Assembly: GCA_000004985.1 (NCBI GenBank)
Contig: GG738848.1
Source: Naegleria gruberi
Lineage: Eukaryota
Length of the DNA: 64,000 nt
Direction: 5' to 3' (one strand)
This document shows, piece after piece, positions 5,096 to 33,619 of the stretch (position 1 is the first letter of the stretch; every line of letters begins with the position of its first letter). Made by a program: the position numbers and the translations under genes. The notes under the pieces were generated by a model. The model was not told the DNA's origin and made no database searches. It saw only the letters and a list, made by a program, of their open reading frames with translations.

Positions 5096-5183
5096 AACAA
5101 TATTCCTTTAATCTTTAATATTAAGGTAACATTAGCCTAATCATGATTAGATAAAGGTTTAGTATTCTGAATAAATAATTTAA

Positions 5184-15480: not shown

Positions 15481-15600
15481 TTTTATGATTAATATTTTGA
15501 TTAGTAGGTGGTTTATCATAAACTTTAGTTCTACCTGGAAAATGCTATCATATTGAAAAATAGTTTAGAATATTGATTTTATAAGATCTATCTTGTTTTA

Positions 15601-16836: not shown

Positions 16837-16923
16837 TTATTGGACGAATTGTAAACAGTGCGCTCAAACAAGACTAAAAATACACAAACAGAAGTAAACA
16901 TTACATTTGGAAAGCACATTAAT

Positions 16924-18195: not shown

Positions 18196-18423
18196 TTCTT
18201 TTCAGCTACTATTAATGAAAATTTTGGGTATTGAAAATATCAGCAAATGCTCAAAGATATTTTTTTTAAAGAATTTAATGAATTGTCTCATTTTGGAAAG
18301 GTAAAAAATCAATACGGGAATTGTTGAGAGGACCTTTTTTGGAGAATGGGTTTATTTTCGTTAGCCAATTGCTTTTTTGTTAATAATTAAATAGATTTTA
18401 TATACAGATAAAAATGATTGGAT

Positions 18424-21400
18424 TTATTTATTACTACTAATTTGCATACTTAAATGTCGATAAACTTCAAATAGATGGCATGTTTTGAATTCATCTGATA
18501 ATTGTAGTAACCATTCATAATCGCCTAATTTGTTTCCTTCTTGTGATTTGGCTCCTATGGCAGGAGTGATTTCAAGCATTTGTTTGAGAGGAATTTCAGA
18601 ATCGAGAGTTTCACTTGTAAAGTAGGAGAGAAGTAATTCTTTCATGGATGAAACTAGCATTGAACAATCGTCTGGAGAGAGGATATTCTTGAATTCATCG
18701 AGTTTTTGAACTAGCTCAGCAGGTAGAACCTTCTTGTACTTGTTGGCAATGGAGGAAGATTCAATAGAAGCACCTGGTGAGAGTTCATTCTCTAAGAGGG
18801 ACCACAAGGATACCAAATGGCATAACTTGACATGGACAATGATAGTATAACTCTTGGCAAGTGTTTGCTTTGTTACTTTTGGATCTACTAGAAGAATATT
18901 TTGAAGGTAGTCAATAATTGACATCTTTTCAACTTCCTCCAAATTGTTGGAACCAGAGATTGCTTGTAAGAATGAAATACACTCTTCAATTTGTCTAATG
19001 CAAGATTGGAACAAATCGAGTGAAGTCTCTCCACCTCTTAACTCTGAAACTATAGCTTGTTTCATATCTGTTGGTAATTCAACTTGTTTAATCTTGGACT
19101 TGAGCTCAGAAACTGGTCCTCCTACTTGGCCAAATCCACTTGAATATCTAGTTTCGTTAAGGAAGGTGAAATTCTCCAATTCCAATTTGATTTTCGGTTT
19201 TCCAGAAAGGTACTTGTTAACAATAAATTGTTCCACTCTTTGATAGTCAAACTTGTAAGAATTTTGCTTGTTGGTATCTTGGTCGAGTTCTGAATCAGTA
19301 ATGACAGGCATCACCTCTTCTTCAATATTAAAACTCACAAGATGATGTTTGCTAATGAAACGGCTAGAAATTTCAATTGGAGAAGATTCAGTGGACGTCT
19401 TGTTCAATAACTTGCCAGCTCTATCAATAATATCATTGTGCTTATCGACTAGGAATTGAATGAGAGCCAATGCACAAATTCCTTCATCTTGCTCATCTGG
19501 AATAGAGAAGGAAAGAGGTGTATCCTTACTCATACTAACATTCTTACACCATGCAGGCAGAGGTAAACATTGGTATCTTTCAATATATTTCCAACTGTGA
19601 TTGAATGATTTAGCCCAACCATCAAAGATCTTTTCAATAGATGCCTTCTCAGCTCCAAGTTGGAAGTGAATTGGTGACAAGGAAAGTGATGACATGAATT
19701 CTGAAAAGACATCTCTAACAGTTCTTGTTCTAGCATAGTGACGATCGATTCTTCTCGAGAAGGTATTGGTTACCAATTTTTGCCATTTCACAACATGAGG
19801 AATATATCTTGTTGGATAGAGTAAATGTTCATTTCTAATAAAGAGGCTCAAAATTGGATACTTTCTTTCTGCCTTATCTGCAATAAAGTATGATTTGAAT
19901 TGATCATAGGTAATTGGTGGCTTGATATTCCAAATTTGACTAATTGGATCAGAAAGTGGGAGAATAGGTTGTTTCAATTCTTGAGGTGCACCAGCTGAGG
20001 AAAAGAGTAGAATATTGGTTATTACATCATTGCCCTTCTTTTGGATGGAATCAAGTTGTTTGTAGTAGAGTTGATATTTCTTTGCAGCATTTTCTGTTAT
20101 CATTGTTACACATCCATTGAAGTGAGTTTCCCATCCAGATCTTCCTGCCTTTGTAGAAATGTCACGACTTGTGTATGGAAGTTTTGGATTGGTTCGTTTC
20201 TTTGTCTCCAACTGCTTGGAAGAGTAACTAAAGAATTCCAAAATATTAAACAAGAGAACACTGGCTTTCTCTTCATTTTGTCCTCCCAACAATTCACACA
20301 GAATACTCCAATCGTTCTTGATATGCCCGAGTAAGAATTCATTGAGATTGTCAACACTTGACATGGTCTTGTGGAAAACTTGTCTGTATTCCTCTTCTCT
20401 TTCTGGGAAGATTGAATTACCAACCAGTAAGAGGGAATGAATAATAAGTCTGATAATTCTGAACGATACTGGAGAAATTTCTCTTACTGTTGCAGCCAAG
20501 TCTCTTTCCTTAAAATGCTCATAAACAGCATAGCCCGTAGGTGCAATATCCTCATCCTGTTTAATCTTGTCGTTGGAGAAGTGAGGAACATGGTCAAATC
20601 CACCAATAGGTAATCCACACTCTGGACACATTGCAAATTCAGTTGGATATCCACAAGAATCGACTACATAAACATGGTTATTTGCACACTTGTACCAGGA
20701 GACAGTGCCATTATCAATTGTATTGATGACTTGTGTTCTGGCATCATCGGTAACACTTGGTAAGTATTTGTCTTTCAATGAAGATGGGTCGAACAATAAG
20801 AGCCACCAAAATTGATCTGTTACATAATTAGATAAGGCAACAGAACAAATGTGGTGAATAACGTGGACGAGTGTCAGATTTTCCAAAGTAGTATTCTCAT
20901 TAAGGAAGAAGAAACTATCCTCATTGAATGCATTGGAGGCAAACTTGATGGTCATGTGTACTTCCTTATCATCCCTCAAGACATGTTTGAGAAGGAAATT
21001 CTTGAGTTTGGTAATATCGATTGGACATGACTGAGTATTGACTTCATCCTCGGAGGTTAAAATCTTGGTGAATTTGTCCTTGTTAGAATTTTCAGAACAA
21101 TAGGACAAGTAGCACTTATCAACTACAGCAAGATAGCACAACTTCTTCAACGAATGAATATCTATTTGTTGTCCAGTATTGATGATTGCTTCTAGGGAGG
21201 CCTTGAGTTTGATAATAGACTCAGTCTTACTGTTGTAATCTCCTTGTTGTCTGAGACTCATAATCATGTCTACACAAGAGGCTAATTCTTCCAATCCATT
21301 CAACACGTGCATGAGTACATTTTGTGGAATATTGTCAGTGTACTTGAAACCTTGCAAGAGTGAAGAGACCCAAGGGAATTGTGGAGAAGCTCTAGAACGG

Positions 21401-24400
21401 AAAGTCTTGAGCAGGAATACTCTACCCTTTCTCTCAACAACTAATCTCAAAAGAACCATTTTGAGGAAGGAAAAGTTTGGTCTCTCAAATAAAGATAATA
21501 ATTGACGAGCTATTGGGCTAGATGAAATAAAATCCCTAATGGAATCACCTCTCTCCACTACTAGAATCAGTCTCTTTGAGAAGGTAGACATGGCACATCG
21601 TATTGCTGCTAGTAAATGGACATCCTTGATAATGTCTTTCCAAGAGGCAACGTCAACAAAATTGTCAGAGACAGATTCTAAAAGTTTAGATAATTGTTCT
21701 TCTGGTATGTTTTGAAGCACGGACTCATAAATAGACAAGTAGCTGATGAGTGTGCTTTGATCCAGAGATTCTGTCTTTGGACTGAGTTCTACTTTGAAAA
21801 TTTCCTTCAACTCTTCATTAACAAGTGGCTTGGTATTCTTATTGAGTAGGAGCTTTTTGAGAATGCTAACTTTGAGGTTTTGTGTTGCCTGCTTCATTAA
21901 TTGATTGAATTTTTCATTCTCTCCCTTGATAAGACCCATCAGTGCTCCAACAAGAGGTTTTTCAATGTCATCCTCTTTTCCAATTCTCCTCACAAGGAAT
22001 TTAGCTGTGAACATTTCAAAGAATCTAGTAATGTTGGTCTTTTTTCTACTTTCATCTGATTGGTTGGTTTTGTCGTTTTGAATATTATCTCCAATCTTGT
22101 TAACCAAATCTAAAAAGTATAATATCAAATCCAAACTACTTTGAGATGACAAACTCTTGGTTTTCATATTTTGCCATAAAATCATGGATATTTCCCTTAC
22201 AATACCGAGAGGAATTGCAATTTCTTGGAGGTACTCCTTGTAGAATTGAAGTTTTTGCCATTTTTCATGAATGTATCCAATATTCTTCAACATTGAACTT
22301 CTTGGGCCACCTGTCAAGTTTATAGTAGTACTGTGAATGAGAGTGATGAGTACTTCTACTGGGCTCTTAATATCTGTCAGTGTTTTGACCCAAATATTTC
22401 TTCTCTGGTTTGCAACAGTAATATCATGAGAGGTTTCAATATTTCTTGGATCCAAGTTATGATAAATAACACTAAAGAGCAGCATGTCAATCTCTTCAAT
22501 GGAAGATATTCTCAATGAAGGAACAAGAAGTTTTTGAAGGAACTTTCTCTGAAGAACAGACTTTGGGAAGGTTTCAAACAAGACATAATATGATTGAAGT
22601 CTTCTCTCCTGTCTCCAATAGAATGAAAGTATTTTAGCAATATTTGATCCTTCAGAAGGGTCTGCATCTAACATCTTTTTGATAATCTCATATTGTACCT
22701 CATTAGTTAACACTGTACACTGAACACCACAGATACACATGTAATCATAGAGGAAAAATTCAGAATATTCTCTTGGCAAGTTGTTCATGAAAGGATAGAT
22801 CATGTCAATATGCTTTTGTAAGGCCTCATAAACTCCCAATCTAGAACTTTCACATACACTTCTCCAGCTATGTAGATTTCTACAAACTTCGTAACTGAAA
22901 GGATATCTTGCTTGGAAAATTCTATTGTTATTACCATCACTCTTGACTTCTATTGGTTTCCATCTGAGTAGCTCAGCCATCGAAGATATTGTCTGTTCAT
23001 TTCGTGTTAACATGTGATTCACTGAAGGTCTCTTCAGGTCATCCAAAAGTTTAATCCACAAGTTTGTGCCTTCAGTTCTGTTGGTACTCTTGTATTCAAA
23101 GAAGAGTCTCAAATTGTCGTTTCTATCAATTTCAGCCAAAAGGAATGTAAATGATTTGATTAATATTCTCTCGACACAGTATTGAATAGCTGAGTGGTAT
23201 GTATTCACAACAAGGAAGTATTCGTTAATGTGGTTGGCTACATAGGTTGAGTAGAAGTTAATTTGATTTTGAGAAAAGTAGTCATGACAAATCTCCAAAA
23301 CCTTCTTGTTAATAACTTTCCAACATTCATCAGAATCAATGAGTTCGTTTGTTCTTGAAATTAAAAGAGTAATGTCATTAATTTTGGTATTGAATTTTCT
23401 TAGCATTGCCAGAGAGGTACGGAAGTTACTCTTAATAACTTGTCTCACATTAGTAGTTTGAATTTGTTCGGTGAATGGTCTGTTCAAAATTTCATAAATT
23501 GTAGTTTCTGTTGGTCTTATTTCATCAATAAATGCAAACTTCCATGGAATGTCAAATTCAATCAAGTGCTGACTGTTAATTGATTTTCCTGGAACAACAT
23601 TGATTAAGAGTAAAATGTTCTTTCCGACACTCTCACTAGGTGAGATACACTTTCTGTGCTTTTGGATTATAAACTTGGTTTGGTTCAAAAGGTCCAAATT
23701 CATATTTTCACATTGCAAAACAAGCAAGTGTTGTCCATTTGCTGAGGTAATTTTCTTTCCAAAGAATTGTTTTACAAGCTCTATTAATTCCATCTCTGAT
23801 TTGAGCTCAGCCATAGAAACAACAGAATGGTATTCTATGCTTGCTCCAATCTCTCTGGATGCCTGAATCAAGTTATCAATATTAATAGATACAGATGAAT
23901 AGGTAAGTAAACAAAGTTGGAAATATCCATAATAAATTAAGGAATTTGAAGACAGACCATTTTGAGATTGCTCTTGCAAAGAACCGAGCAAGAAATGAAG
24001 TAAATGAGGAAGGTCTCTGTGCTCTTGCTTTTCAAAATATGTTTTCAGATATTCCCTTGTTCTACTATTGTTGATAGAGGACATTCTAACCACAGCATCT
24101 GCAGTTGTAATCCACAATAGAGCATTCTTACAAATATCCAACAAGTAGTCATGGAGAGAAGGATCCTCAATTTGCTTGGTATCTAGTGATAAAACAAGCG
24201 ATTGAAGGAGTGATTTGTGAGTATTAACAAATGGTTTTTCATCATCACCAAAGGTTGTCTTGACCCACGATTGCAATCTACTGCACAAGTTCTTTACATT
24301 AACAGAGGCAGATTTGTCAAAGAGATCATCTCTGTGAAGTGTTTGCTTCTCAAATCTGTTGAGGAGTGGCTTGGCAAGTCGTGAGTAGGCATCGTCCTGA

Positions 24401-27400
24401 TCCACAATAACAATAACTCTAAAGTTCTTGTGAACAGAACAAATTCTACTGTATGTACCAAGTGAAATACCAACCACTCTATTCTCATCATACTCTATGT
24501 ATTGCAAATTGAACAAGTCGTAGAGACTTTCATATAATTGTTCACAATTTACCAAGACTACTGTTTTACCAGTTGACATGGCATTCTTAATTCTTTGAAT
24601 ATCCATACAAACCTGAAGTTCTTTAGTACTGTTAGGGAAGTTTGGACCAAAGACAACTTCTGCTTTATCATATGCAAGTAATTGTTTAAATTCTGAGAAG
24701 AGAATAGAGAGGGCAGCATTATTCTTTGTGAGTAGCATTAAATGTCTTGCCTTGGTATCGTTCAAATTTTCAGAAATATAATCCAACTTTGACTTCCTAT
24801 TGCTGATAATATTCATACCAACACAGGAGAAGAAGATATTCAAAACTCGAAGGAACTCTTCATTATTTGATCCTCCAAAGTTTCTGGCAAGAGCATCTGT
24901 GAGTAGCTCTGGTGAGAGTGTACCGTCAAAGTTTCTGTTAATAAACTTGACAGTGTGGTAAAAATCTCTCAATCCGAAAAAGTCCTTTCTTTGTTGACCA
25001 TTATATACATCATGGTAAGCCTTGGCCAAAGAATAGAGAGTACTGTCTAAATGCACAGAATTTACAATACCAGACAAGGTAGTTTTGAGTTCAAATGTTG
25101 AAGGTGAAGGTCTGGTCAAATAGACTGCTCTATTGATAAGGTTAGGATCCAATGTCCAGTTAGAAAGACCAATCACAGAGACAGAGCAATCCTCTTCCAA
25201 TTCCTTATTGACAACTTTGAGTGGATGGGAAGAACTATGTTCTAACAAGCCAACCTCGTTCAATAAAACTATGGCAATAGAATTTGGAGAATTCTTCTGA
25301 TATCTCTTGGCAGATTCAAAGCAACTCTTGACGCTCTCAGGTGTGGAAATTTGTGAACATTGATAAGTGAATATTTCAAGAGAAGGCAATGAGCGTAAAA
25401 AACTATTGACACTGGCTGTTCCATTGAGATTAGTGCTCAAAATCTCTAAACTCAATGACTTGGAAGAGCCACTCTTGCCATTGATGAATATTGGAATCCT
25501 ATTCAGTACACAAACAAGGGTCATGAAAATATTTTCTCGCAGAGCATGATTAAGTGCCACTCCCTTTGGAATGTTCAAGTGCATCGTGTAGTATCTTTGT
25601 TCTTCTGTGAGAGTATTGATAAAGTCACCCTTTTGATAGGAAAAGTAGGAAGCAATTTTGCTTCTTGAAGAGGTGAATAAATCTTCCAACTCCTTCACAA
25701 ATTCATCACGCTTGGAACTCAATCTGTGGTAATAACAATGTCCAAGAGAAAGTATGATAGAGTTCTTGATAATAAAGTTTGATTCCTCTAGGAAAAAGGT
25801 AGGATCAATACCATTTCTCTTTGAGAGTGATTGATAAAAGCTCTTGAATAAGTTAATGCAACGTTTAACATCTCTCAGATTCACAGCACTTCTTTCCATA
25901 TAAACCTTTCTAATGAATGATTGAGAGGCAAATATGAGCTCTGTAAAGCAATCAAAGAAGAGTCCAGACTTTCCGATATCCTCAACATTGATTTCCATGA
26001 GTAGAATGGCTCTAATGTATAACTGTTCAATAATAGGATTCAAAGAGCCAAAGTTAAATACATGATCCAAAATAGAGACAGGCATTGGATATACCTTATA
26101 GATAAGACATTGTGAAAAAACTTGAATATCCAAACCTGTGGTTCTTTGGAGGGCTCTAATATTGTCTTTCAAAATATCAGATTTTTGACCAGAGGAACCA
26201 TATTCAATGTCTGTTCCAGCATATCTTCTCAGTCTGTATGGATTACAGGAGGCAACAATCTTCAAATTTCTAGGTAGCACCTTATTATGAACACAATTGT
26301 CACAAATTAATTCTTTAAATAATCCTAAATTATTAGAGGTGTTTACCTTGTCAAAGAAGGCTATAATCTCCTTCTTTGGATTGAGTCTGGCTTCTGCAAT
26401 GAGCGGATTCAACCAATTCAAAATATCATTAGATGTGTGACCTTCATTCACAGCAAATCTCTTCAACTTTATACCAAGAACAGAGCACAAGTATTTGGTT
26501 AGTTCTGATTTACCAACACCACTATCACCACAAAGAATTGTAGGTAAATTGTATTTCATCTTGTGATAAATCATCAATACCTTGCTCAAATTATCTACAG
26601 TGAGAACGTAATTATTGCTGATTTTCTTTTCATTGGTTTCATCCTGTTTCAAGCCAGCAACATTTCTAATAATTTCTTGAGCCCTATCATGAGATAAATC
26701 TCTTGGGGTCTCCAAGTCTATACCATTACATGAAAGAGAGTATTTTAACTCTTCATTAAGTTCGAGCTTGTCAGTATTGATACCAATAAGATCAATTCCT
26801 GTTATTTCATTAATGTTACTTCTATAGAAAACAACTAGAGGATGTTGAGATGCTTGCTCCTCCCACTTGCTTAATCTATGTTCAAACATTTCGACATATT
26901 GGAGAAGTAAAATCTCAGTGTATGGTTTTCCTTCATACTTCTTAGCAAGCGAAATAATAAAGTCCTTTTCAACAGAAATAGCTGTTAAATCCCTTGCTGA
27001 CTTGATCATTAAATCAATCATGGCGTGTTTGAATAATTGCATGCTTCCTTCCATAACACAATTTTTAAAGCAAACATATCTAGAAGTGCTCAAAAATTGC
27101 CCATACAAGAATCGTACAAAATTGTTCACCACAGAGAAGGAGGCATTGTCAGGTTTGAATCCAGTGTACTTGCACAACAGCTTGAAGCAAGCTTTCAGAC
27201 TCAAGTCTGGTGCCTTTACAGGATCAAAATCTGGTACGCTAGGAGCTGCATTCTTGAATACATTCTCCTCGAAGGCTTTCAAAAATTTACAAACATATTG
27301 TACCTTATTATCATCTGTGCACATAATATCAATACTATCATCTTCCATGTTAATAAGTTCATAGTTTACCAATTCCAGACTTGATTCATCTGTAGTTATT

Positions 27401-30400
27401 TCTTCAATTGGCAAAGCAGTGCAAAAGTAAACAAATTCACTCAAAATTGGCACACAAAGACTATTTGGAATCTCGATATAGAATTGGATATTTGGAACAA
27501 TATGGAAAACACTTGCAGTTTCTCTGTCTCTAACACAACCAAGATAGAACAATTCAAATAACAAGGAATTCATGTGCTTTGGTATTATGTTACAGAGAGC
27601 AAGATGGAAAGCAATTTCTTTTCCTTGATTTTGATTTGTTGTTTTCCAGAGTAGGCCAACTATTTCTTTCACTGTTGAATCTTCTAATACAGTTACTCTA
27701 CTGTATTTCTTCTTATTCAAATAGATATCCTTCAGGATAAATCTAGACTTTCCTGCACCAGTTCTATTGGAGGTAACACATTTGACATTGGATCCTTGGT
27801 ATGATTTCATTATATTTACAATATACTTCTTTGGAAGAGTTTTGAAGGACTTGTCAACATAGTTTGAAAATTCCAACAAGAGACGAGCATTGTTGTTATC
27901 TGAACCACCAATAAGAACTAGTTTTCCAGTATTTTCCTTTTTAGAGAGGGATGAAAGAATTTCCTGTATCTTGAGAAGCATTTTAGATTGAACAATGTAT
28001 GGAAGTTCTTGAATATTGGCAATGCAATACATGTTATCACGCTTTTCTTTCACCTTGGAGTTTAACCATCTATTCAAAATCAACTCGATATCCTCCATAT
28101 CAGTGCTAAAAGAGTTGCACAGCAAAACTTCCTCACTCAAAGGAAGTCTTCCACGTAGTGAGTATAAGGAAATGATAGCATCCATAACTTCCTTCTCCTT
28201 TTGAAGTTTGATAATCTTGAAAACTCCATCAAATGTATTTAACGAATATTTAGATTGGACATTGGTTGGCAATTCATACTGCGATTTTCTATAAGAATTT
28301 TCTCTTCTAGAAAAGATGCTTTCAATAAAGGAGCATAACTTTCTCATCTTCTCTTCAGCTGCACAATCGGTAACAAAGTCCAAATTGAGAACGGTAATGC
28401 AGTTTTCAATGTCAGACAGCTCTAGGTTATGATCACCAAGTTTAAGAATGGATAACAAATCATAGATGGATGATCTCTCAGAATCTTGTTGATATTTCTT
28501 AAGTAATTCGTAGACTCTCAAAGATTCCTTTGCTCTAAAAAGATTCATATAGTAATTTCCATTCCTCGAGTTCTCTGTTATCTTCTTCCATTTTTCTAAT
28601 TTTTCTAGTAATTCAGCATGATACTTTTGAATATATTCAGGAGAACACTCTGAAGCTCTTATGGCCTTGAAGTAGTTTTCTTGGAATTCAAAGTGAGCTT
28701 GTTTGCATAAATCCAGCAAGGATGCCTTGATATCCAACATTAGAGTAATACATCTTACAAAAAGATTAATCCTAGAATTAACATCATCCAACGTTTTGAT
28801 ATTGTCTGGTATTTCGCTCAACATTAACTTATTTCTCAACTCTACAAGTCCATCAATAGTCATAACCTGTTGTTGTAAACTTAATCTTCTTATTTGGGAG
28901 GTATTCATAATTGGATGTGATGGCATAATCTTACATAGAATGACACTAGGATCAGCCAAATTAAATTCATACTGTCCTCTTTCTGTAATAGCTGCAAGAT
29001 CGTAGAGAGCCTGAACACCTCCACTTCTTGTTTTCTCTTCAAACATGCTGAGGAGAAGTGTGAAATTCTTCTTCAAGTTACTCAACTGAGACAAGTCATC
29101 ATTACTAATTTCCAACTTGGTCATTGAATTCTTAAAATTTTCCAAGCTAATAAAATTAATATTTGCATGGTCAACTTGATTCGAATAGATAAAGTCAGAA
29201 ATACAATCCCTGACAACCACCAAACTTTTCAAGGATTGTAAAATCTTTACCGAGTCAGTATAACTCTTACAAATCTCTACAAGGTTATCAAATTCAGAAT
29301 TGGATTTGTAATTTAATAGCCAGTCTATAATAGAAAATCCTGTACTATCACATAGTAATTTCATGAAGGAAAGTTGATTATCGTTAAATCCTTTAAAAAA
29401 TCTAGTAAACAAGAGTAGGTTAAAGTTACTCTTTTGGTCTTCAAACATTGCCAATGTTTGGCTTTCAAGCATACTTTGTTGATTGAGAGTGTTGGACTCT
29501 TTCTTTAATTGAATATAATCAGTGTCTTTCTTTAAATCAATAGTAAAGTACGGCTCAAAATGTTCAACTAATAAGAGAAGAGAAGGTAAATAGGATCTAT
29601 AGAGATTAATCTTTTCGAAGCTATTGATAATATTCAACCTCTTGGATACCCATTCAAGATCTTCCTTGTTAGGAGTTCTATCTGACGATTTTCCATTAAA
29701 GGTCATTCTCACACTCAGCAACTCTTCTTGATATTGGACATTAGTGCTGGATAGTAAACTGTCAACTCTATTCTCATATCTACACTTTCTCAGGATTGAA
29801 TAAAACTCGTTCAATTTGATTGAGAGAGAATCGATTGACTTGTAAAATCCCAGCCACTTATTCTTTACATCTGGAACCAACTTATTCTTGATAGAATCGA
29901 TGGTGTGTTTTTCATTATTGGAAGCTTTTGTGTAGAGATCCCTCCACAAAACAAGGAAAAACTCTGAGGTTCTCAACTCGTAGAAGAAAGCCAACTCTTC
30001 AAATCCAAATGGAATGAGCTCGGATACTTGCTTTTGAATCTTTTTAAATACCATTTCTCCCATATTTCTTCTAATTTTGATGATGGTATCTAACACTAGA
30101 CTAGTATCAAAAAAGTTTGGATCATCAGCAAACATGGTCAAGAAATTCTGGGCTGCATCAAGAGTAGTCTTGAAAGAAAGCAACTCTTGTCTCAATTGTT
30201 TTACATGAGATTCATTGAATCCAACATCTCCCATCAAGTATACCAATTTCATGAACTGAGCTTCGTGTTTCAAGACCATGTGAAGAGTTGATATGGTGCA
30301 TGTCTTGTCCAATAATTGGAACACAAGTTTGAAGTAAATGTCCATCAGGGCGGAAACTTCTGTTTGGATCTTGGTAAAGTTCTCATTGCCCGAATTCTTT

Positions 30401-33072
30401 TCAGTATTCTTGATAAACTTGAAAAAGTGGTAGCACAGAGGATTTTTAACGATGGTCTCATAGCTTTGTTGTAAGTTAGAAGACAATAGCAATGTCTTTA
30501 GGAAAACCAAACTAATGTCCTCATCTACAACATGAGTAATAATCTCGAACAGTAGGACGGCCTCCTTGCTGGTTGCACTCTGAGTGATGAATTGGCAACA
30601 CTTATCAATAATGTAACTCTTCAGAGTGTTGGAAAACATGCTTCCCTTGAATCTTCCCATAAATTCTATATATTCAAAAGCAGAGAGGGAAACAAAGAAT
30701 GGTGTCAACATTAATTCGTCAAGCAAGACATGTACATATTCCTTCAAAAAGTTTAACTTGACCAATCTATCAATAAAGAGTAGGAAATTCTCTAACTTCA
30801 TTGTGTTCTGTTGACTTTGAAGAAGGAACAAGAGTGAGGTGGAATTTCTTTTTGATTGGCTGCTGGTGACTTCTTTAGAATCACTTGACTCCACAATTCT
30901 GATGTTGTGGGTAAAGATGTGAATGAGCCAACGTTTTGTTCCATCAAATAATCTGAAGTATCCTTGGATTGAATTGGCTTGATTGATGTTCATTTGAATA
31001 TTTTCTAATAGATTGGCAATCTCATTCAAATCATTTTCGGTATTGATTTCTGCAACCACTGGAGATTGAATCATACAATAAATAATCTCTTCATTTGGGA
31101 GCAAGTTACACATTTGAAATATGGTATCCAAGTCTCTTCTAGTGTTAACCAAATCTGAATTAAAGCTCTGAAGTTGATACCTGTTATTGAGTTCCTTGAT
31201 CTTTTTCTTTAAACATTGAAAAACTGTTGATCTGATCTTTTGTGAATTGTCATGATAAATTAATGAATGGTCCTTCATCTTCTTTATCAATGCCAAGAGA
31301 GATTGGAAGCTTGGAGCATTTGAAATTAATCTTTGAATATCTAGAGAAATTTTCTTTTCCTTCTCTGAATTAAAAATTTCCTTCTCAAAAACTTCATTCA
31401 TTTGCTCAATATTTTCACAACTTGTATAGTCAATCATGTTTTCAGAGGAATTCTTTTCAGAGCTGAATAATTCTTCGTCAGATGAAGAGTTTGAATCAGA
31501 TGTTACAACATCTTCCTCTAGAATAGGTTTTGATTTGACTTTTGGAAGTTGTTTTGGAGAAGCTGTAATCATTCTATCCCTTGAACGAGCATCCTTCTCA
31601 GAGGGAGAACTTGGTGGAGTATTTGGCGATTGATATCCAGTCGTGTTATTATTGTTATTGGAAGGAAATGGATGAAATTGATTTCCAGCCACTGTAGTTG
31701 GTGTATTAGATCCAAAATATCCACTATAATCCTCCATAGATGTACTAGTTGTGTTGGTAGAGATGGATCCAGTTGTGGAAATTTCAATTTCCTCCTCACT
31801 TGTTGTGTAAATAAATGGAATATTCATATCTAGGTTATGAGTGAAAGAACCCTTAAATGATCCACTACTACTCGTTGATGAGAACATTTTGATTGGAAGT
31901 GTCGATTGTTGATGGCCACTGTGCAATAAGCTGTCTCCAAAAATACCCTCTCCACTGTGTTGCATTCCCTGTGATGATGTTGGGAATATAAATCCACTAT
32001 TGTCACTGTCCAATAAATCTTCCATCGATTGTTCAATAGAGGAGAGTAAATCCTCAGCAATAATGGTATCTTTCTTTTCTGAATTATTGTCAAGTGATTT
32101 TTGCTTCATTTTGTGACGTTTCACAACAGAAGGAGCAAGAGCAAATGTTGGAGATTCTAGAGATGGATACTCTTCCTCATCATAGAATTCATCATATCGA
32201 TCATGATGATTCTCATCGAGGAGAGAAAATGAATTGATAGAATTTGTGGTTGTCTGATTCAATAATGGATTATTTGCTGTGAAAGACAAGGAAGAAGAAC
32301 TCGAGCCACTTTTTCTCAATTTTTTCTTTCTCTCACTTGAAAAGGTTCCTCCTCCACTGCCACTAACATTGATAAGACCATCATCTGATAAAGTATCCTT
32401 CCTGAATGCAGGTGGAGAATGTGGTGACTTGATGGATTCATTCTCTCCCAATTGAATGTTTGCTCTTCCTTGATTGATGGCAAGATTGGGTATTGCCTTA
32501 TTGTTTGGACTTGAATTGTTACTACCACTGCTGCTGCTGCTACTAGAGTTATTACTATTGACAGAATTTGTGCTGTTATTATAACTGTTTTTGAAGGGTG
32601 TGTTGGTAGTGTTGGAGCTTGATGCTCCTTTTCCGAATTTTGAAAAGATGGTTTCATCATCATCGTCCAAAATTACTCCACTCTTTGAGATGCCTGAAGA
32701 ACCAGAATTTGAAATGATAGATGAAGTATAATTGAATCTGGAAATGGAATAGATTGAGTTTTGAGAAGTGGTTGATTGTTTGTTGCTATTGTTTGGAGGT
32801 GTTGATGATGGTTTGGTTCCTGATGTTGGTAATGTTGGTGGAGGTGAATTGCTACTACTCGTGCTACTACCATTCGATGAATTGCCACTACTACTACTAT
32901 TATTAGTAACTGATGAAGATTGTTGTTGATTATTACCAGTTGCTGCAAATCTATTGAAAAGTTGATTATTTACATGAGTTTGAATGGGAGTTGGGAGAGG
33001 TTTCTTTGTGGGAGTGGAAGGTAGAGCCGTTGCAGGAGGCTTTTTAGTATTACTATTGTTAAATTGATGCAT
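18424..33072 (-). CDS. Giant (about 4,880 aa) intronless P-loop NTPase with a C-terminal RZ-type zinc finger; RNF213 (mysterin)-like
   Basis: A single uninterrupted 14.6-kb ORF; the first ATG is at 33072. About 520 aa of N-terminal Ser/Asn/Thr low complexity. At least three Walker-A sites (NRTGAGKSRFI; CGDSGVGKSELTKYL; INGKSGSSKSLSLEIL). RZ finger WYKCANNHVYVVDSCGYPTEFAMCPECGLPIGGFDHVPHF about 800 aa from the C-terminus. I found no C3HC4 RING. TAA stop at 18424-18426. Confidence 0.8.
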   Translation of the reverse strand: MHQFNNSNTKKPPATALPSTPTKKPLPTPIQTHVNNQLFNRFAATGNNQQQSSSVTNNSSSSGNSSNGSSTSSSNSPPPTLPTSGTKPSSTPPNNSNKQSTTSQNSIYSISRFNYTSSIISNSGSSGISKSGVILDDDDETIFSKFGKGASSSNTTNTPFKNSYNNSTNSVNSNNSSSSSSSGSNNSSPNNKAIPNLAINQGRANIQLGENESIKSPHSPPAFRKDTLSDDGLINVSGSGGGTFSSERKKKLRKSGSSSSSLSFTANNPLLNQTTTNSINSFSLLDENHHDRYDEFYDEEEYPSLESPTFALAPSVVKRHKMKQKSLDNNSEKKDTIIAEDLLSSIEQSMEDLLDSDNSGFIFPTSSQGMQHSGEGIFGDSLLHSGHQQSTLPIKMFSSTSSSGSFKGSFTHNLDMNIPFIYTTSEEEIEISTTGSISTNTTSTSMEDYSGYFGSNTPTTVAGNQFHPFPSNNNNNTTGYQSPNTPPSSPSEKDARSRDRMITASPKQLPKVKSKPILEEDVVTSDSNSSSDEELFSSEKNSSENMIDYTSCENIEQMNEVFEKEIFNSEKEKKISLDIQRLISNAPSFQSLLALIKKMKDHSLIYHDNSQKIRSTVFQCLKKKIKELNNRYQLQSFNSDLVNTRRDLDTIFQMCNLLPNEEIIYCMIQSPVVAEINTENDLNEIANLLENIQMNINQANSIQGYFRLFDGTKRWLIHIFTHNIRIVESSDSKEVTSSQSKRNSTSLLFLLQSQQNTMKLENFLLFIDRLVKLNFLKEYVHVLLDELMLTPFFVSLSAFEYIEFMGRFKGSMFSNTLKSYIIDKCCQFITQSATSKEAVLLFEIITHVVDEDISLVFLKTLLLSSNLQQSYETIVKNPLCYHFFKFIKNTEKNSGNENFTKIQTEVSALMDIYFKLVFQLLDKTCTISTLHMVLKHEAQFMKLVYLMGDVGFNESHVKQLRQELLSFKTTLDAAQNFLTMFADDPNFFDTSLVLDTIIKIRRNMGEMVFKKIQKQVSELIPFGFEELAFFYELRTSEFFLVLWRDLYTKASNNEKHTIDSIKNKLVPDVKNKWLGFYKSIDSLSIKLNEFYSILRKCRYENRVDSLLSSTNVQYQEELLSVRMTFNGKSSDRTPNKEDLEWVSKRLNIINSFEKINLYRSYLPSLLLLVEHFEPYFTIDLKKDTDYIQLKKESNTLNQQSMLESQTLAMFEDQKSNFNLLLFTRFFKGFNDNQLSFMKLLCDSTGFSIIDWLLNYKSNSEFDNLVEICKSYTDSVKILQSLKSLVVVRDCISDFIYSNQVDHANINFISLENFKNSMTKLEISNDDLSQLSNLKKNFTLLLSMFEEKTRSGGVQALYDLAAITERGQYEFNLADPSVILCKIMPSHPIMNTSQIRRLSLQQQVMTIDGLVELRNKLMLSEIPDNIKTLDDVNSRINLFVRCITLMLDIKASLLDLCKQAHFEFQENYFKAIRASECSPEYIQKYHAELLEKLEKWKKITENSRNGNYYMNLFRAKESLRVYELLKKYQQDSERSSIYDLLSILKLGDHNLELSDIENCITVLNLDFVTDCAAEEKMRKLCSFIESIFSRRENSYRKSQYELPTNVQSKYSLNTFDGVFKIIKLQKEKEVMDAIISLYSLRGRLPLSEEVLLCNSFSTDMEDIELILNRWLNSKVKEKRDNMYCIANIQELPYIVQSKMLLKIQEILSSLSKKENTGKLVLIGGSDNNNARLLLEFSNYVDKSFKTLPKKYIVNIMKSYQGSNVKCVTSNRTGAGKSRFILKDIYLNKKKYSRVTVLEDSTVKEIVGLLWKTTNQNQGKEIAFHLALCNIIPKHMNSLLFELFYLGCVRDRETASVFHIVPNIQFYIEIPNSLCVPILSEFVYFCTALPIEEITTDESSLELVNYELINMEDDSIDIMCTDDNKVQYVCKFLKAFEENVFKNAAPSVPDFDPVKAPDLSLKACFKLLCKYTGFKPDNASFSVVNNFVRFLYGQFLSTSRYVCFKNCVMEGSMQLFKHAMIDLMIKSARDLTAISVEKDFIISLAKKYEGKPYTEILLLQYVEMFEHRLSKWEEQASQHPLVVFYRSNINEITGIDLIGINTDKLELNEELKYSLSCNGIDLETPRDLSHDRAQEIIRNVAGLKQDETNEKKISNNYVLTVDNLSKVLMIYHKMKYNLPTILCGDSGVGKSELTKYLCSVLGIKLKRFAVNEGHTSNDILNWLNPLIAEARLNPKKEIIAFFDKVNTSNNLGLFKELICDNCVHNKVLPRNLKIVASCNPYRLRRYAGTDIEYGSSGQKSDILKDNIRALQRTTGLDIQVFSQCLIYKVYPMPVSILDHVFNFGSLNPIIEQLYIRAILLMEINVEDIGKSGLFFDCFTELIFASQSFIRKVYMERSAVNLRDVKRCINLFKSFYQSLSKRNGIDPTFFLEESNFIIKNSIILSLGHCYYHRLSSKRDEFVKELEDLFTSSRSKIASYFSYQKGDFINTLTEEQRYYTMHLNIPKGVALNHALRENIFMTLVCVLNRIPIFINGKSGSSKSLSLEILSTNLNGTASVNSFLRSLPSLEIFTYQCSQISTPESVKSCFESAKRYQKNSPNSIAIVLLNEVGLLEHSSSHPLKVVNKELEEDCSVSVIGLSNWTLDPNLINRAVYLTRPSPSTFELKTTLSGIVNSVHLDSTLYSLAKAYHDVYNGQQRKDFFGLRDFYHTVKFINRNFDGTLSPELLTDALARNFGGSNNEEFLRVLNIFFSCVGMNIISNRKSKLDYISENLNDTKARHLMLLTKNNAALSILFSEFKQLLAYDKAEVVFGPNFPNSTKELQVCMDIQRIKNAMSTGKTVVLVNCEQLYESLYDLFNLQYIEYDENRVVGISLGTYSRICSVHKNFRVIVIVDQDDAYSRLAKPLLNRFEKQTLHRDDLFDKSASVNVKNLCSRLQSWVKTTFGDDEKPFVNTHKSLLQSLVLSLDTKQIEDPSLHDYLLDICKNALLWITTADAVVRMSSINNSRTREYLKTYFEKQEHRDLPHLLHFLLGSLQEQSQNGLSSNSLIYYGYFQLCLLTYSSVSINIDNLIQASREIGASIEYHSVVSMAELKSEMELIELVKQFFGKKITSANGQHLLVLQCENMNLDLLNQTKFIIQKHRKCISPSESVGKNILLLINVVPGKSINSQHLIEFDIPWKFAFIDEIRPTETTIYEILNRPFTEQIQTTNVRQVIKSNFRTSLAMLRKFNTKINDITLLISRTNELIDSDECWKVINKKVLEICHDYFSQNQINFYSTYVANHINEYFLVVNTYHSAIQYCVERILIKSFTFLLAEIDRNDNLRLFFEYKSTNRTEGTNLWIKLLDDLKRPSVNHMLTRNEQTISSMAELLRWKPIEVKSDGNNNRIFQARYPFSYEVCRNLHSWRSVCESSRLGVYEALQKHIDMIYPFMNNLPREYSEFFLYDYMCICGVQCTVLTNEVQYEIIKKMLDADPSEGSNIAKILSFYWRQERRLQSYYVLFETFPKSVLQRKFLQKLLVPSLRISSIEEIDMLLFSVIYHNLDPRNIETSHDITVANQRRNIWVKTLTDIKSPVEVLITLIHSTTINLTGGPRSSMLKNIGYIHEKWQKLQFYKEYLQEIAIPLGIVREISMILWQNMKTKSLSSQSSLDLILYFLDLVNKIGDNIQNDKTNQSDESRKKTNITRFFEMFTAKFLVRRIGKEDDIEKPLVGALMGLIKGENEKFNQLMKQATQNLKVSILKKLLLNKNTKPLVNEELKEIFKVELSPKTESLDQSTLISYLSIYESVLQNIPEEQLSKLLESVSDNFVDVASWKDIIKDVHLLAAIRCAMSTFSKRLILVVERGDSIRDFISSSPIARQLLSLFERPNFSFLKMVLLRLVVERKGRVFLLKTFRSRASPQFPWVSSLLQGFKYTDNIPQNVLMHVLNGLEELASCVDMIMSLRQQGDYNSKTESIIKLKASLEAIINTGQQIDIHSLKKLCYLAVVDKCYLSYCSENSNKDKFTKILTSEDEVNTQSCPIDITKLKNFLLKHVLRDDKEVHMTIKFASNAFNEDSFFFLNENTTLENLTLVHVIHHICSVALSNYVTDQFWWLLLFDPSSLKDKYLPSVTDDARTQVINTIDNGTVSWYKCANNHVYVVDSCGYPTEFAMCPECGLPIGGFDHVPHFSNDKIKQDEDIAPTGYAVYEHFKERDLAATVREISPVSFRIIRLIIHSLLLVGNSIFPEREEEYRQVFHKTMSSVDNLNEFLLGHIKNDWSILCELLGGQNEEKASVLLFNILEFFSYSSKQLETKKRTNPKLPYTSRDISTKAGRSGWETHFNGCVTMITENAAKKYQLYYKQLDSIQKKGNDVITNILLFSSAGAPQELKQPILPLSDPISQIWNIKPPITYDQFKSYFIADKAERKYPILSLFIRNEHLLYPTRYIPHVVKWQKLVTNTFSRRIDRHYARTRTVRDVFSEFMSSLSLSPIHFQLGAEKASIEKIFDGWAKSFNHSWKYIERYQCLPLPAWCKNVSMSKDTPLSFSIPDEQDEGICALALIQFLVDKHNDIIDRAGKLLNKTSTESSPIEISSRFISKHHLVSFNIEEEVMPVITDSELDQDTNKQNSYKFDYQRVEQFIVNKYLSGKPKIKLELENFTFLNETRYSSGFGQVGGPVSELKSKIKQVELPTDMKQAIVSELRGGETSLDLFQSCIRQIEECISFLQAISGSNNLEEVEKMSIIDYLQNILLVDPKVTKQTLAKSYTIIVHVKLCHLVSLWSLLENELSPGASIESSSIANKYKKVLPAELVQKLDEFKNILSPDDCSMLVSSMKELLLSYFTSETLDSEIPLKQMLEITPAIGAKSQEGNKLGDYEWLLQLSDEFKTCHLFEVYRHLSMQISSNK

Positions 33073-33619
33073 GATTAATATTCGGATCAAGCAATCAATT
33101 AATATTGATTAATATTATTATTCTAATGAATACAGTGTTGATTAATGTACAGGAGAAGACTCGATTTGAGTATATTTACAATATATATCTACCACGAGTA
33201 GGAAATTTACTGTACAGTTCGATTGAGAGTTTCAATCAAAATTCGAGAGTTGATCAAGCAAGAAGATATGGAATCGGAAAAGGCTTTTTTTGTTGTTTGA
33301 TGACCAACTAATAATAGAGGTCAAGAAGTGGTTTGAAACATATTGTTGTACAGTAACGGTATGATGGCTTCCATCATGACCTCAGATCCATGTATTTCAA
33401 CTTTCCATCCATGTTAATATATTACAGCATCACTAACTTATTGGAAGGTGTCAAGGTTAAATATCATGTTGAAGATTATTCTCAATAAATTTATTAAAAA
33501 CTTTGCAGGTTAAAAATATTCATTGTAAAATATCACTCAGCCAAGAAATATTTTAAATTTCGTTTGAAAAAAAAAACTTTTAAGTGCGAGCACCCCGTTG
33601 TTTTGACCACCACATAAAA

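What the first reader, a model, noticed from the sequence alone, without database searches (positions are those of the whole stretch)
18424..33072. Giant intronless RNF213-like NTPase with an RZ finger but no RING
A single 14.6-kb ORF of about 4,880 aa, in a genome where small neighbouring genes carry 1-3 introns. It has at least three Walker-A P-loops and an RZ-type zinc finger (W-x-C-x3-H...C-G-x-P...C-P-E-C-G-x-x-I-G-G). That motif is known only from the RNF213 and ZNFX1 families, which are large innate-immunity/nucleic-acid-surveillance ATPases. I found no C3HC4 RING. It begins with about 500 aa of Ser/Asn/Thr low complexity. An RNF213-like protein in an AT-rich protist-like genome would matter taxonomically and functionally.
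Basis: partly seen in the sequence, partly recalled or inferred. Interest (0 to 1): 0.7.

Follow-up and report, generated by a model that had tools for sequence, protein, structure and literature searches.

The report
RING-less RNF213 relative in Naegleria
This 14.6-kb uninterrupted gene of the amoeba Naegleria gruberi encodes a genuine relative of the human immune and Moyamoya-disease ubiquitin ligase RNF213 that keeps the catalytic RZ zinc finger but lacks the RING domain and has naturally altered ATP-hydrolysis residues.

Summary
Window 18424-33072 (-) is one open frame of 4,882 aa. It is identical to the public N. gruberi model XP_002682051.1 / D2V1H3, which is uncharacterised and auto-labelled 'RZ-type domain-containing protein'.

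It is an RNF213 homologue (PDB phmmer E=8e-166), collinear from about aa 906 to 4844: proximal stalk, AAA core, hinge and E3 shell, RZ finger, CTD.

All six functional RZ residues are conserved. These are Zn ligands C4129, H4133, C4149 and C4152, nucleophile C4140 and base H4161.

No RING exists. In alignments the animal RING falls into a clean gap at aa 3667|3668. Brown-alga-type relatives carry a U-box in exactly that slot, so the Naegleria clade probably lost it.

New here: the Walker A lysines of AAA3 and AAA4 are kept, but both Walker B motifs are altered (DE to DK, DE to NE). The three closest relatives share this (DQ and NE); none of 42 other homologues does. The protein therefore resembles the engineered 'WB3/WB4' ATP-trapped, E3-active RNF213.

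An independent environmental contig differs at 18 synonymous sites and 1 non-synonymous site, so the gene is under purifying selection.

Verdict: real, a new variant of a known kind, moderately interesting. Function is inferred, not shown.

The parts
18424..33072 (-). Complete CDS (4,882 aa plus TAA stop). Single exon. Identical to N. gruberi XP_002682051.1 / D2V1H3.
31393..33072 (-). aa 1-560: Ser/Asn/Thr-rich low-complexity N-terminus (57% SNTGPQ), with no homologue detected. It is in frame and open (chance about 4e-19), so it is probably a translated disordered region.
30358..31392 (-). aa 561-905: distal N-arm, conserved only with the closest relative P0049. It has no counterpart in vertebrate RNF213, and no CBM20 was detected.
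28192..30357 (-). aa 906-1627: proximal stalk/linker. The block aa 906-1781 is homologous to primate RNF213 aa ~1078-1999 (hhalign Prob 99.9, E=9e-32).
23995..28191 (-). aa 1628-3026: dynein-like AAA core, aligned to human RNF213 chain residues 1879-3341 (i-Evalue 5e-120).
27745..27768 (-). AAA2 P-loop NRTGAGKS (human SERAGVGKS). In mouse RNF213 this is the site that binds ATP as a structural glue.
   Evidence: PMC7311170
26506..26529 (-). AAA3 Walker A GDSGVGKS. K2188 corresponds to human K2426. Intact.
26347..26364 (-). AAA3 Walker B IAFFDK. The catalytic Glu (human E2488) is replaced by Lys2242 (codon AAG, 26347-26349). The three closest relatives have Gln here. All 42 other homologues have Glu.
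25456..25479 (-). AAA4 Walker A GKSGSSKS. K2538 corresponds to human K2775. The lysine is intact, but the family-invariant Pro is Ser2534.
25255..25269 (-). AAA4 Walker B VLLNE. The Mg-coordinating Asp is replaced by Asn2605 (codon AAC) and Glu2606 (human E2845) is kept. P0049, P0050 and P0051 share this change.
20803..23994 (-). aa 3027-4090: hinge plus E3 shell. The shell alone (aa 3387-4081) aligns to primate RNF213 aa 3698-4445 (hhalign Prob 99.3, E=7e-21). An AF2 model of aa 3000-4170 hits only RNF213 in the PDB.
22069..22074 (-). Empty RING/U-box slot, between Asp3667 and Lys3668. The animal RING and the stramenopile-type U-box align into a clean gap here.
20572..20712 (-). RZ finger, aa 4121-4167. 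Zn ligands are C4129, H4133, C4149 and C4152. The predicted nucleophile is C4140 (codon 20653-20655, human C4516) and the predicted general base is H4161 (codon 20590-20592, human H4537).
   Evidence: residue roles from PMC11549300
18427..20571 (-). aa 4168-4882: C-terminal domain. The block aa 4091-4799 is homologous to the RNF213 CTD (i-Evalue 2.4e-43).

Best explanation
NAEGRDRAFT_56792 is a single-exon gene for a divergent member of the RNF213 family of giant AAA-E3 machines. Shown by sequence: it keeps the proximal stalk, the six-module dynein-like AAA core, the hinge and E3 shell, the RZ finger and the CTD in RNF213 order. It lacks the RING and the distal N-arm, where the human protein has CBM20. 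The RZ finger keeps all four zinc ligands and the Cys/His catalytic dyad.

Inferred mechanism: like mammalian RNF213, whose RING is dispensable, it takes ubiquitin from an E2~Ub thioester onto Cys4140 of the RZ finger (transthiolation). It then passes ubiquitin to a substrate with help from His4161. E2 docking would rely on the E3 shell and CTD, because there is no RING or U-box.

The AAA ring keeps the P-loop lysines of AAA2, AAA3 and AAA4. It has lost the Walker B catalytic Glu of AAA3 (Lys) and the Walker B Asp of AAA4 (Asn), together with several other residues in the AAA3-AAA5 segment that are invariant elsewhere in the family. I therefore infer that the ring works as an ATP-binding allosteric switch or structural glue that licenses the E3, and not as a hydrolysing motor. 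It would be a natural analogue of the engineered WB3/WB4 mouse RNF213, which stays E3-active and ATP-trapped.

The biological role is speculative. The likeliest guess is ubiquitin tagging in cell-autonomous surveillance, for example of intracellular microbes or lipid and membrane surfaces, in this bacterivorous amoeba.
For: Family membership: phmmer against PDB matches only RNF213 (E=8e-166, two collinear blocks). hhalign extends homology to the stalk (E=9e-32) and the E3 shell (E=7e-21). Foldseek with the AF2 model gives only RNF213 at E<=1e-3 (4e-14 to 1e-11).

RZ finger: Pfam E=3.5e-15. The alignment to human RNF213 is gapless across the finger, with C4505, H4509, C4516, C4525, C4528 and H4537 all conserved. 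Their roles come from PMC11549300 and PMC12075652.

RING absence. The RING is dispensable for mammalian RNF213 auto-ubiquitylation and LPS ubiquitylation (PMC11549300, PMC12075652).

ATP sites: Walker A is intact and Walker B altered. The change is shared by all four clade members, Ng, P0049, P0050 and P0051 (K/Q/Q/Q at AAA3, N/N/N/N at AAA4), and by 0 of 42 other homologues at AAA3. Of 121 family-invariant columns, 18 are changed in at least 2 of the 3 clade members scored. Besides the two Walker B residues these include N2277, P2534, H2622, K2645 and R2648, which lie in conserved blocks downstream of the AAA3 and AAA4 Walker motifs.

Published biochemistry: Walker A mutants lose E3 activity, Walker B E-to-Q mutants keep it and show sustained activation, and hydrolysis counteracts activation (PMC12075652). 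AAA2 of mouse RNF213 is already a bind-only 'glue' site (PMC7311170).

The gene is functional: an independent metagenome contig (98.8% nucleotide identity) differs in the last 5,721 nt of the CDS at 19 sites, 18 synonymous and 1 non-synonymous, against 105 differences in 4,564 nt outside it.
Against: No biochemical or expression data exist for this protein or any non-animal RNF213-like protein that I could find.

[quoted passage not shown] A hydrolysis-poor ring may therefore not support that activity.

Lys in place of the Walker B Glu is not isosteric with Gln and could disturb nucleotide binding as well as hydrolysis. Asn for the Walker B Asp may weaken Mg-ATP binding.

The AF2 model is only moderate (mean pLDDT 61, pTM 0.43) and poor over the RZ, and the Foldseek TM-score is about 0.3. 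Structure adds little beyond the sequence evidence.

The genomic neighbourhood is housekeeping and gives no functional hint. The immune role is analogy only.
Confidence: 0.65

Rival explanations
1. It is a conventional RNF213-type motor. AAA3 and/or AAA4 still hydrolyse ATP, because other residues (Glu2606 kept in AAA4, neighbouring acidic residues, or trans-acting elements) compensate for the Walker B changes. The protein would then behave like vertebrate RNF213 minus the RING.
For: AAA4 keeps the catalytic Glu2606. Walker A motifs and most of the 121 invariant columns (103 of 121) are retained. Purifying selection is evident, at least over the C-terminal 1,906 aa.
Against: The AAA3 catalytic Glu is 100% invariant in 42 other homologues and is Lys or Gln in all four clade members. 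Gln is the classic hydrolysis-dead substitution. The Walker B Asp of AAA4, and H2622, K2645 and R2648 downstream of it, are also replaced clade-wide.
Confidence: 0.2
2. It is a catalytically inert scaffold, a pseudo-enzyme in both modules. The RZ finger would be kept only for zinc-dependent folding or ubiquitin binding, and the AAA ring only as a rigid platform.
For: Both ATPase sites are degenerate. There is no RING or U-box to recruit an E2. The RZ region is modelled with low confidence.
Against: The non-structural catalytic dyad (C4140 and H4161), which is not needed for zinc binding, is conserved in Ng and its relatives. The substitution pattern of 18 synonymous to 1 non-synonymous shows constraint across the shell, RZ and CTD. 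Mammalian RNF213 needs no RING for RZ-dependent activity.
Confidence: 0.1
3. It is an annotation or assembly artefact: a fusion of several genes, a pseudogene, or a gene whose RING exon was lost through misassembly.
For: None beyond the unusual size and the low-complexity N-terminus, which has no homologue.
Against: The frame is open for 4,888 codons (chance about 1e-161). Homology to RNF213 is collinear over about 3,900 aa. The closest relatives, P0049 (14.3 kb) and P0003 (12.9 kb), are also single uninterrupted ORFs on independent eukaryotic contigs. An independent assembly reproduces the 3' 5.7 kb, including the empty RING slot. The RING gap is shared by P0049 and P0050.
Confidence: 0.03
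4. It is a ZNFX1-type nucleic-acid surveillance helicase and not an RNF213 relative.
For: It shares the RZ finger.
Against: No SF1 helicase or NFX1-type zinc-finger Pfam hit. PDB sequence and fold hits are exclusively RNF213. The P-loops lie in dynein-like AAA modules.
Confidence: 0.01

Closest known systems
Vertebrate RNF213 (mysterin), human Q63HN8 and mouse; PDB 8S24, 6TAX, 7OIK
   Same: Same order of modules from the proximal stalk to the CTD. About 27% identity over the AAA core. AAA2, AAA3 and AAA4 P-loops are present. The E3 shell is present. The RZ finger has identical spacing and all six functional residues. The CTD is present.
   Different: No RING; there is a clean gap at aa 3667|3668. 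No detectable CBM20 or distal N-arm; a 560-aa low-complexity N-terminus sits there instead. The AAA3 Walker B Glu is Lys and the AAA4 Walker B Asp is Asn, and further invariant residues in the AAA3-AAA5 segment are changed.
Engineered mouse RNF213 WB3/WB4 double Walker B mutant (E2449Q/E2806Q; PDB 9I1I, 'WB3/WB4 + ATP')
   Same: Walker A is intact and hydrolysis residues are removed in both AAA3 and AAA4. The clade relatives P0049, P0050 and P0051 carry exactly E-to-Q at AAA3. The single Walker B mutants WB3 and WB4 keep E3 activity and show sustained ATP-dependent activation (PMC12075652).
   Different: This is a natural, not an engineered, state. Naegleria has Lys, not Gln, at AAA3. At AAA4 the Asp is changed, not the Glu. 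Behaviour here is inferred, not measured.
Ectocarpus fasciculatus CAM9257784.1 (P0082) and metagenomic P0064: U-box-bearing RNF213-like proteins
   Same: They group with the Naegleria clade in the rough NJ tree. They share the AAA core, E3 shell, RZ and CTD.
   Different: They carry a Pfam U-box (E=5e-8 and 6e-14) about 510 aa upstream of the RZ, in the same alignment columns as the animal RING. Their Walker B motifs are canonical DE. P0082 also has a UBA domain in the N-arm.
N. gruberi paralogue NAEGRDRAFT_80150 (P0015, 3,300 aa)
   Same: Same genome. It is an RNF213-like AAA core plus RZ finger without a RING.
   Different: About 27% identity. It has canonical DE Walker B in both AAA3 and AAA4 and falls in a different subgroup with Rhizophagus, Mesostigma and Lineus.
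ZNFX1
   Same: It has an RZ finger with the same Cys/His dyad. It is an ATP-binding giant coupled to a transthiolating E3. In ZNFX1 a Miz (RING/U-box-like) domain hands E2~Ub to the RZ (bioRxiv 10.1101/2025.10.14.682297).
   Different: ZNFX1 has an SF1 helicase and NFX1 fingers in place of a dynein-like AAA ring. None of these is present here.

Membership tests
RNF213 family | Dynein-like six-module AAA core collinear with RNF213 | tested here: met
   phmmer block aa 1628-3026 against human chain 1879-3341, i-Evalue 5e-120. The AAA3-AAA4 segment alone gives E=4e-76.
RNF213 family | Nucleotide-binding P-loops in AAA2, AAA3 (human K2426) and AAA4 (human K2775) | tested here: met
   NRTGAGKS, GDSGVGKS (K2188) and GKSGSSKS (K2538).
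RNF213 family | Catalytically competent Walker B (D-E) in AAA3 (human E2488) and AAA4 (human E2845) | tested here: not met
   AAA3 reads FFDK (K2242). AAA4 reads LLNE (N2605). The change is clade-conserved and absent from 42 other homologues.
RNF213 family | Helical E3 shell between the AAA core and the RZ | tested here: met
   hhalign on the shell only: Prob 99.3, E=7e-21, 621 columns. With the 3-sequence clade profile only the part upstream of the slot is significant (E=1.8e-5). Foldseek with a moderate AF2 model hits only RNF213.
RNF213 family | C3HC4 RING inside the E3 shell (human aa ~3997-4035) | tested here: not met
   No Pfam RING or U-box at E<=1. Regex negative, with 8 of 8 positive controls. 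The family RING HMM finds nothing at E<=10. The RING columns fall in a gap at aa 3667|3668.
RNF213 family | RZ finger with four Zn ligands and the Cys/His catalytic dyad | tested here: met
   PF20173 E=3.5e-15. Gapless alignment with C4129, H4133, C4140, C4149, C4152 and H4161 matching human C4505, H4509, C4516, C4525, C4528 and H4537.
RNF213 family | C-terminal domain following the RZ | tested here: met
   phmmer block aa 4091-4799 against human chain 4507-5165, i-Evalue 2.4e-43. BLAST E=1.7e-42 to primate RNF213.
RNF213 family | N-arm stalk with a CBM20 carbohydrate-binding domain (human aa 378-515) | tested here: inconclusive
   The proximal stalk/linker is homologous (aa 906-1781, E=9e-32). 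Nothing in aa 1-905 matches vertebrate aa 1-1077, and there is no CBM Pfam hit. A fold-level search of aa 561-905 was not done.
RNF213 family | ATP-gated, RING-independent transthiolation E3 activity with UBE2L3-type E2 | not testable with these tools
   Requires biochemistry. Inferred from conserved residues and from PMC12075652.
ZNFX1 family | SF1 (UPF1-like) RNA helicase core and NFX1-type zinc fingers upstream of the RZ | tested here: not met
   No helicase or NFX1 family above noise in Pfam (ResIII E=0.34 only). No ZNFX1 chain appears among the PDB hits.
RING / U-box E3 ligases | Cross-brace RING or U-box E2-docking domain | tested here: not met
   The same tests are positive in animal RNF213 (RING) and in P0064 and P0082 (U-box).
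Dynein / midasin-type AAA motors | AAA_5/AAA_7 modules plus a motor-specific output (microtubule-binding stalk or MIDAS domain) | tested here: inconclusive
   AAA_7 (22.6 bits, cutoff 25.8) and AAA_5 (18.1 bits, cutoff 22) are below their cutoffs. Dynein appears only as a weak fold hit (E about 8e-3). There is no MIDAS or other output-domain hit.

The most novel reading that the evidence does not exclude
The Naegleria clade (this protein, P0049, P0050 and P0051) would be a naturally 'ATP-locked', RING-less form of RNF213. Its AAA ring would have become a pure ATP-binding licence for an RZ-only transthiolating E3. Together with the U-box found in the same slot in brown-alga-type relatives, this would mean two things. 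First, the AAA-ring + (RING/U-box) + RZ ubiquitin-relay machine long predates animals. Second, its E2-docking and motor functions are separable modules that lineages have shed. On this reading, ubiquitin coating of microbes or membranes could be an ancient eukaryotic cell-autonomous defence operating in a free-living amoeba.
Probability: 0.25. Interest if true: 0.75.

Novelty: new variant of a known kind. Interest (0 to 1): 0.55.

Why it matters
The literature I could search treats RNF213 as a vertebrate protein ('expressed in all vertebrates', PMC7311170). I found no paper on non-animal homologues.

This locus shows that the complete architecture minus the RING exists in a heterolobosean amoeba and is under purifying selection. 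It offers natural experiments on three open questions in the field:
- Is the RING needed? Here it is cleanly absent, and in a related group it is a U-box.
- Is ATP binding or ATP hydrolysis the signal that licenses the RZ ligase? Here both hydrolysis sites are naturally disabled while the P-loops are kept.
- What was the ancestral job of the machine, before interferon-driven immunity existed?

The gene model itself is already public and auto-labelled as RZ-containing, and the family is widespread in databases. The novelty lies in the variant features and the evolutionary reading, not in a new kind of system.

Tried and rejected
- BLASTP of the N-terminus (aa 1-560), N-arm (561-1627) and middle region (3027-4090) against the first 46 homologues found essentially nothing. 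Profile-profile comparison was needed.
- An exact look-up of the full protein in the contig index returned 'not on record', although the sequence is in NCBI and UniProt.
- Synteny: tblastx of the window flanks against the flanks of P0049 (L003) and P0003 (L001) found no shared neighbours. The organisms behind the closest relatives stay unidentified (JGI 3300062347, ENA ERZ25074310, Logan).
- Neither protein search returned a relative closer than 34% identity, and in particular no N. fowleri or N. lovaniensis protein. The 50% clustering of the exhaustive library could hide closer orthologues, so absence is not proven.
- Four of the literature searches were aimed at non-animal RNF213 homologues or RZ evolution, and none found such a paper. 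One further search was malformed and one was uninformative because the key term was optional.
- The AF2 model of aa 3000-4170, built from a 6-sequence alignment, is only moderate (pLDDT 61) and poor over the RZ. The Foldseek hits to RNF213 are significant, but TM is about 0.3 and rmsd about 24 A. I use them only as weak support.
- The NJ tree uses a simple distance method on one segment. I use it only for the 100%-supported clades, not for deep branching.
- I considered sequencing error as the cause of the Walker B changes and rejected it, because three independent relatives share them.
- I considered a ZNFX1-type helicase and a gene fusion or pseudogene and rejected both (see the rival explanations).
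Full report
**1. The observation**

Window 18424-33090 (-) is a single open reading frame of 4,888 codons. The first ATG is at 33072. An in-frame TAA lies 13 codons upstream, and the frame ends in TAA at 18424-18426. At this base composition (about 34-35% GC), the chance of 4,888 stop-free codons is about 1e-161.

The 4,882-aa product is identical to Naegleria gruberi EFC49307.1 / XP_002682051.1 / UniProt D2V1H3. Those records call it 'hypothetical protein NAEGRDRAFT_56792' and 'RZ-type domain-containing protein'. So the window is N. gruberi, and the public gene model is the same intronless ORF.

Pfam finds the RZ-type zinc finger at aa 4121-4167 (E=3.5e-15, 55.8 bits against a cutoff of 27), weak dynein-type AAA hits around aa 2147-2230, and no RING or U-box at E<=1.

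Three P-loops are present: NRTGAGKS at 1769-1776, GDSGVGKS at 2182-2189 and GKSGSSKS at 2532-2539. The one exception is the remark about introns in neighbouring genes, which I did not test.

**2. What it is**

A phmmer search of all PDB sequences matches only RNF213 chains (E=8e-166). The match has two collinear blocks. The AAA core is aa 1628-3026 against human chain 1879-3341 (i-Evalue 5e-120). The RZ plus CTD is aa 4091-4799 against chain 4507-5165 (2.4e-43).

BLAST could not bridge the N-arm or the 1,065-aa middle region. I therefore ran an exhaustive HMMER search of the middle region against 1.84 billion representatives. It returned only 34 hits. Two cover the whole middle region: P0049 (4,768 aa, 34% identical to this protein over aa 579-4844) and the fragment P0050. 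A third close relative, P0051, covers its first half.

Profile-profile comparison then closed the gaps:
- The proximal stalk/linker (aa 906-1781) aligns to primate RNF213 aa 1078-1999 (Prob 99.9, E=9e-32).
- The E3 shell alone (aa 3387-4081, with no RZ and no hinge) aligns to primate aa 3698-4445 (Prob 99.3, E=7e-21, 621 columns).
- With only the three clade sequences as query, the part upstream of the RING slot is significant (E=1.8e-5) and the downstream part is collinear but weak.

An AlphaFold2 model of aa 3000-4170 is of moderate quality (pLDDT 61, pTM 0.43). In a Foldseek search of the PDB, its only hits at E<=1e-3 are four RNF213 structures (4e-14 to 1e-11), with low TM (about 0.3). I count that as weak structural support.

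Overall the protein is homologous to RNF213 from about aa 906 to about aa 4844. It is not ZNFX1-like, because no SF1 helicase or NFX1 finger is present.

**3. The RZ finger**

The alignment to human RNF213 is gapless across the finger. The correspondences are:
- Human Zn ligands C4505, H4509, C4525, C4528 match C4129, H4133, C4149, C4152.
- The nucleophile C4516 matches C4140.
- The general base H4537 matches H4161.

The residue roles are taken from PMC11549300 and PMC12075652.

**4. The missing RING**

A C3HC4/C3H2C3 regex finds the RING about 490-530 aa upstream of the RZ in all seven vertebrate homologues and in the mollusc Batillaria. It finds nothing in this protein or in any non-animal homologue. 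An HMM built from those eight RINGs and run with filters off finds nothing here even at E<=10.

In the profile-profile alignment, the primate RING (CPICLGDAQDPVCLPCDHMYCRRCLEAWLVSGQMICPFC) falls entirely into a gap of the Naegleria profile, while the helices on both sides align.

While preparing sequences I noticed that two related proteins carry a classic U-box at that position: Ectocarpus fasciculatus CAM9257784.1 (P0082) and the metagenomic P0064. Pfam confirms it (PF04564, E=5e-8 and 6e-14), about 510 aa upstream of their RZ.

In a joint 24-sequence alignment, the U-box and the RING occupy the same columns. Naegleria, P0049 and P0050 show a clean gap there, between Asp3667 and Lys3668. P0049 and P0050 also have no RING or U-box by Pfam.

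RING and U-box share a fold. In a rough NJ tree, the U-box-bearing proteins group with the Naegleria clade, and that assemblage sits next to the animal clade. The simplest reading is an old RING/U-box slot that the Naegleria clade lost. That is an inference and needs a proper phylogeny.

**5. An unreported feature: both hydrolysis sites are altered**

Aligned to human RNF213:
- AAA3 Walker A is intact (K2188, human K2426).
- AAA3 Walker B reads IAFFDK against human ILFFDE. The catalytic Glu (human E2488) is Lys2242.
- AAA4 Walker A keeps its lysine (K2538, human K2775).
- AAA4 Walker B reads VLLNE against human VVLDE. The Asp is Asn2605.

In an alignment of 41 homologues, every other sequence has D-E at AAA3, and all but one have D-E at AAA4. 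That includes the second N. gruberi paralogue P0015.

The three closest relatives share the change. P0049, P0050 and P0051 have FFDQ, YFDQ and FIDQ at AAA3, and all three have NEVGL at AAA4. It is therefore a conserved trait of the clade and not a sequencing error.

Of 121 columns that are at least 90% invariant among 42 other homologues, 18 are changed in at least two of the three clade members scored. Besides E2242 and D2605 these include N2277, P2534, H2622, K2645 and R2648, which sit in conserved blocks downstream of the AAA3 and AAA4 Walker motifs. I did not map these five residues to named AAA+ motifs.

Published work shows three relevant things for mouse RNF213 (PMC12075652). Walker A mutations abolish E3 activity. 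Walker B E-to-Q mutations leave it intact and give sustained activation. Hydrolysis counteracts activation. In addition, AAA2 already binds ATP as a non-hydrolysed 'glue' (PMC7311170).

The Naegleria clade thus looks like a natural version of the engineered WB3/WB4 protein (PDB 9I1I). In mammalian cells, however, hydrolysis is needed for coat formation on pathogens (PMC11549300). A hydrolysis-poor ring may therefore imply a different mode of action in the cell.

**6. Is the gene functional?**

An independent metagenome contig (ENA ERZ929261, 10.3 kb) carries the last 1,906 codons together with the same PQ-loop neighbour. Its nucleotide identity to the window is 98.8%.

Within the 5,721-nt coding stretch there are 19 differences. 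Seventeen are at third codon positions, and only one changes an amino acid. Outside that stretch there are 105 differences in 4,564 nt. This is clear purifying selection on the shell, RZ and CTD. The contig also independently confirms the empty RING slot.

The closest relatives, P0049 and P0003, are likewise single uninterrupted ORFs of 14.3 kb and 12.9 kb on eukaryotic contigs.

**7. Context and distribution**

The neighbours are ordinary: a PQ-loop transporter, a SPRY protein, a DUF4116 repeat protein, an L7Ae/L30e-family ribosomal protein and an enoyl-CoA hydratase. They give no functional hint.

RZ-bearing RNF213-like giants occur in Rhizophagus, Ectocarpus, Mesostigma, Anaeramoeba, Clydonella (Amoebozoa), hemichordates, molluscs and other animals. 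The family is therefore old and widespread in eukaryotes.

The literature I could search treats RNF213 as a vertebrate protein and holds nothing on Naegleria or other non-animal homologues. [quoted passage not shown]

**8. Mechanism, with what is shown and what is inferred**

Shown by sequence: the RNF213 architecture minus the RING and the distal N-arm; an intact RZ catalytic dyad; intact P-loops; altered hydrolysis residues; and purifying selection.

Inferred:
- An E2~Ub thioester is discharged onto Cys4140 and passed to substrate with His4161, with the E2 docking on the shell and CTD, as in RING-deleted mammalian RNF213.
- ATP binding to AAA2, AAA3 and AAA4 licenses this step, with little or no hydrolysis.

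Speculative: a role in cell-autonomous surveillance in a bacterivorous amoeba.

**9. Verdict**

Three things together make it a new variant of a known kind, of moderate interest (0.55): the clean loss of the RING/U-box slot, the clade-conserved natural Walker B substitutions in both active AAA modules, and the U-box-for-RING equivalence in relatives. All of the functional statements await biochemistry.

Noticed in passing
P0082 aa 3690-3749 (Ectocarpus fasciculatus CAM9257784.1); P0064 aa 1876-1938; fragment P0076 aa ~379: RNF213-like proteins from a brown alga and from metagenomes carry a Pfam U-box (E=5e-8 and 6e-14) in exactly the alignment columns where animal RNF213 has its RING, about 510 aa upstream of the RZ finger. 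I found no mention of U-box-type RNF213 relatives in the literature searched.
   Followed up: yes
P0082 aa 1327-1365: The Ectocarpus RNF213-like protein has a UBA (ubiquitin-associated) domain in its N-arm (PF00627, E=1.6e-6). This suggests that N-arm recognition modules differ between lineages: CBM20 in human, UBA here, and a low-complexity region in Naegleria.
   Followed up: no
L002 (ENA ERZ28614175, STEW19-1 scaffold_5187, 14,990 bp), and the similar P0029-P0048: Dozens of contigs of about 14.6-15.3 kb, very AT-rich where read (L002 is 22.8% GC), each consist of essentially one ORF of 4,800-4,990 aa. The ORFs are RNF213-like with canonical Walker motifs and only a weak RZ-like motif. They might be gene-sized chromosomes of ciliates, judging by the sample name, which I did not verify. 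No telomeric repeats were seen at the ends of L002.
   Followed up: partly
P0015 (N. gruberi NAEGRDRAFT_80150, 3,300 aa; not in this window): N. gruberi has a second, distantly related RNF213-like paralogue (about 27% identity) with an RZ finger, no RING and canonical DE Walker B motifs. The genome therefore holds both a 'hydrolysis-competent' and a 'hydrolysis-altered' version.
   Followed up: partly
L004 (ENA ERZ929261, run ERR1078381, PRJEB11402) = window 13888-24149: A metagenome contig is 98.8% identical to this N. gruberi locus over 10.3 kb. A close N. gruberi strain or relative was therefore present in that sample. It allowed the count of 18 synonymous and 1 non-synonymous differences.
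   Followed up: yes
window 13425-14978 (-), 15601-16836 (-), 16924-18195 (-), 33584-34054 (+), 34263-35195 (+): The neighbouring ORFs encode a DUF4116 repeat protein (six repeats, E=2.5e-47), a SPRY-domain protein, a PQ-loop transporter, an L7Ae/L30e-family ribosomal protein (divergent, about 500 bp upstream of the big gene's ATG) and an enoyl-CoA hydratase. Their exon structure was not examined.
   Followed up: partly
window 26867-27364 (+), 27037-27384 (+), 32316-32663 (-): Short ORFs of 115-165 aa lie inside the giant gene, either antisense or out of frame. They are most likely chance ORFs and were not analysed.
   Followed up: no
Joint alignment: P0011 (Glandiceps) and P0020 (Anaeramoeba): At the RING/U-box slot, the hemichordate homologue shows a degenerate RING-like stretch and the Anaeramoeba homologue shows a 'CPICFEE' fragment. 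These are possible intermediate states of decay or gain of the E2-docking domain.
   Followed up: no
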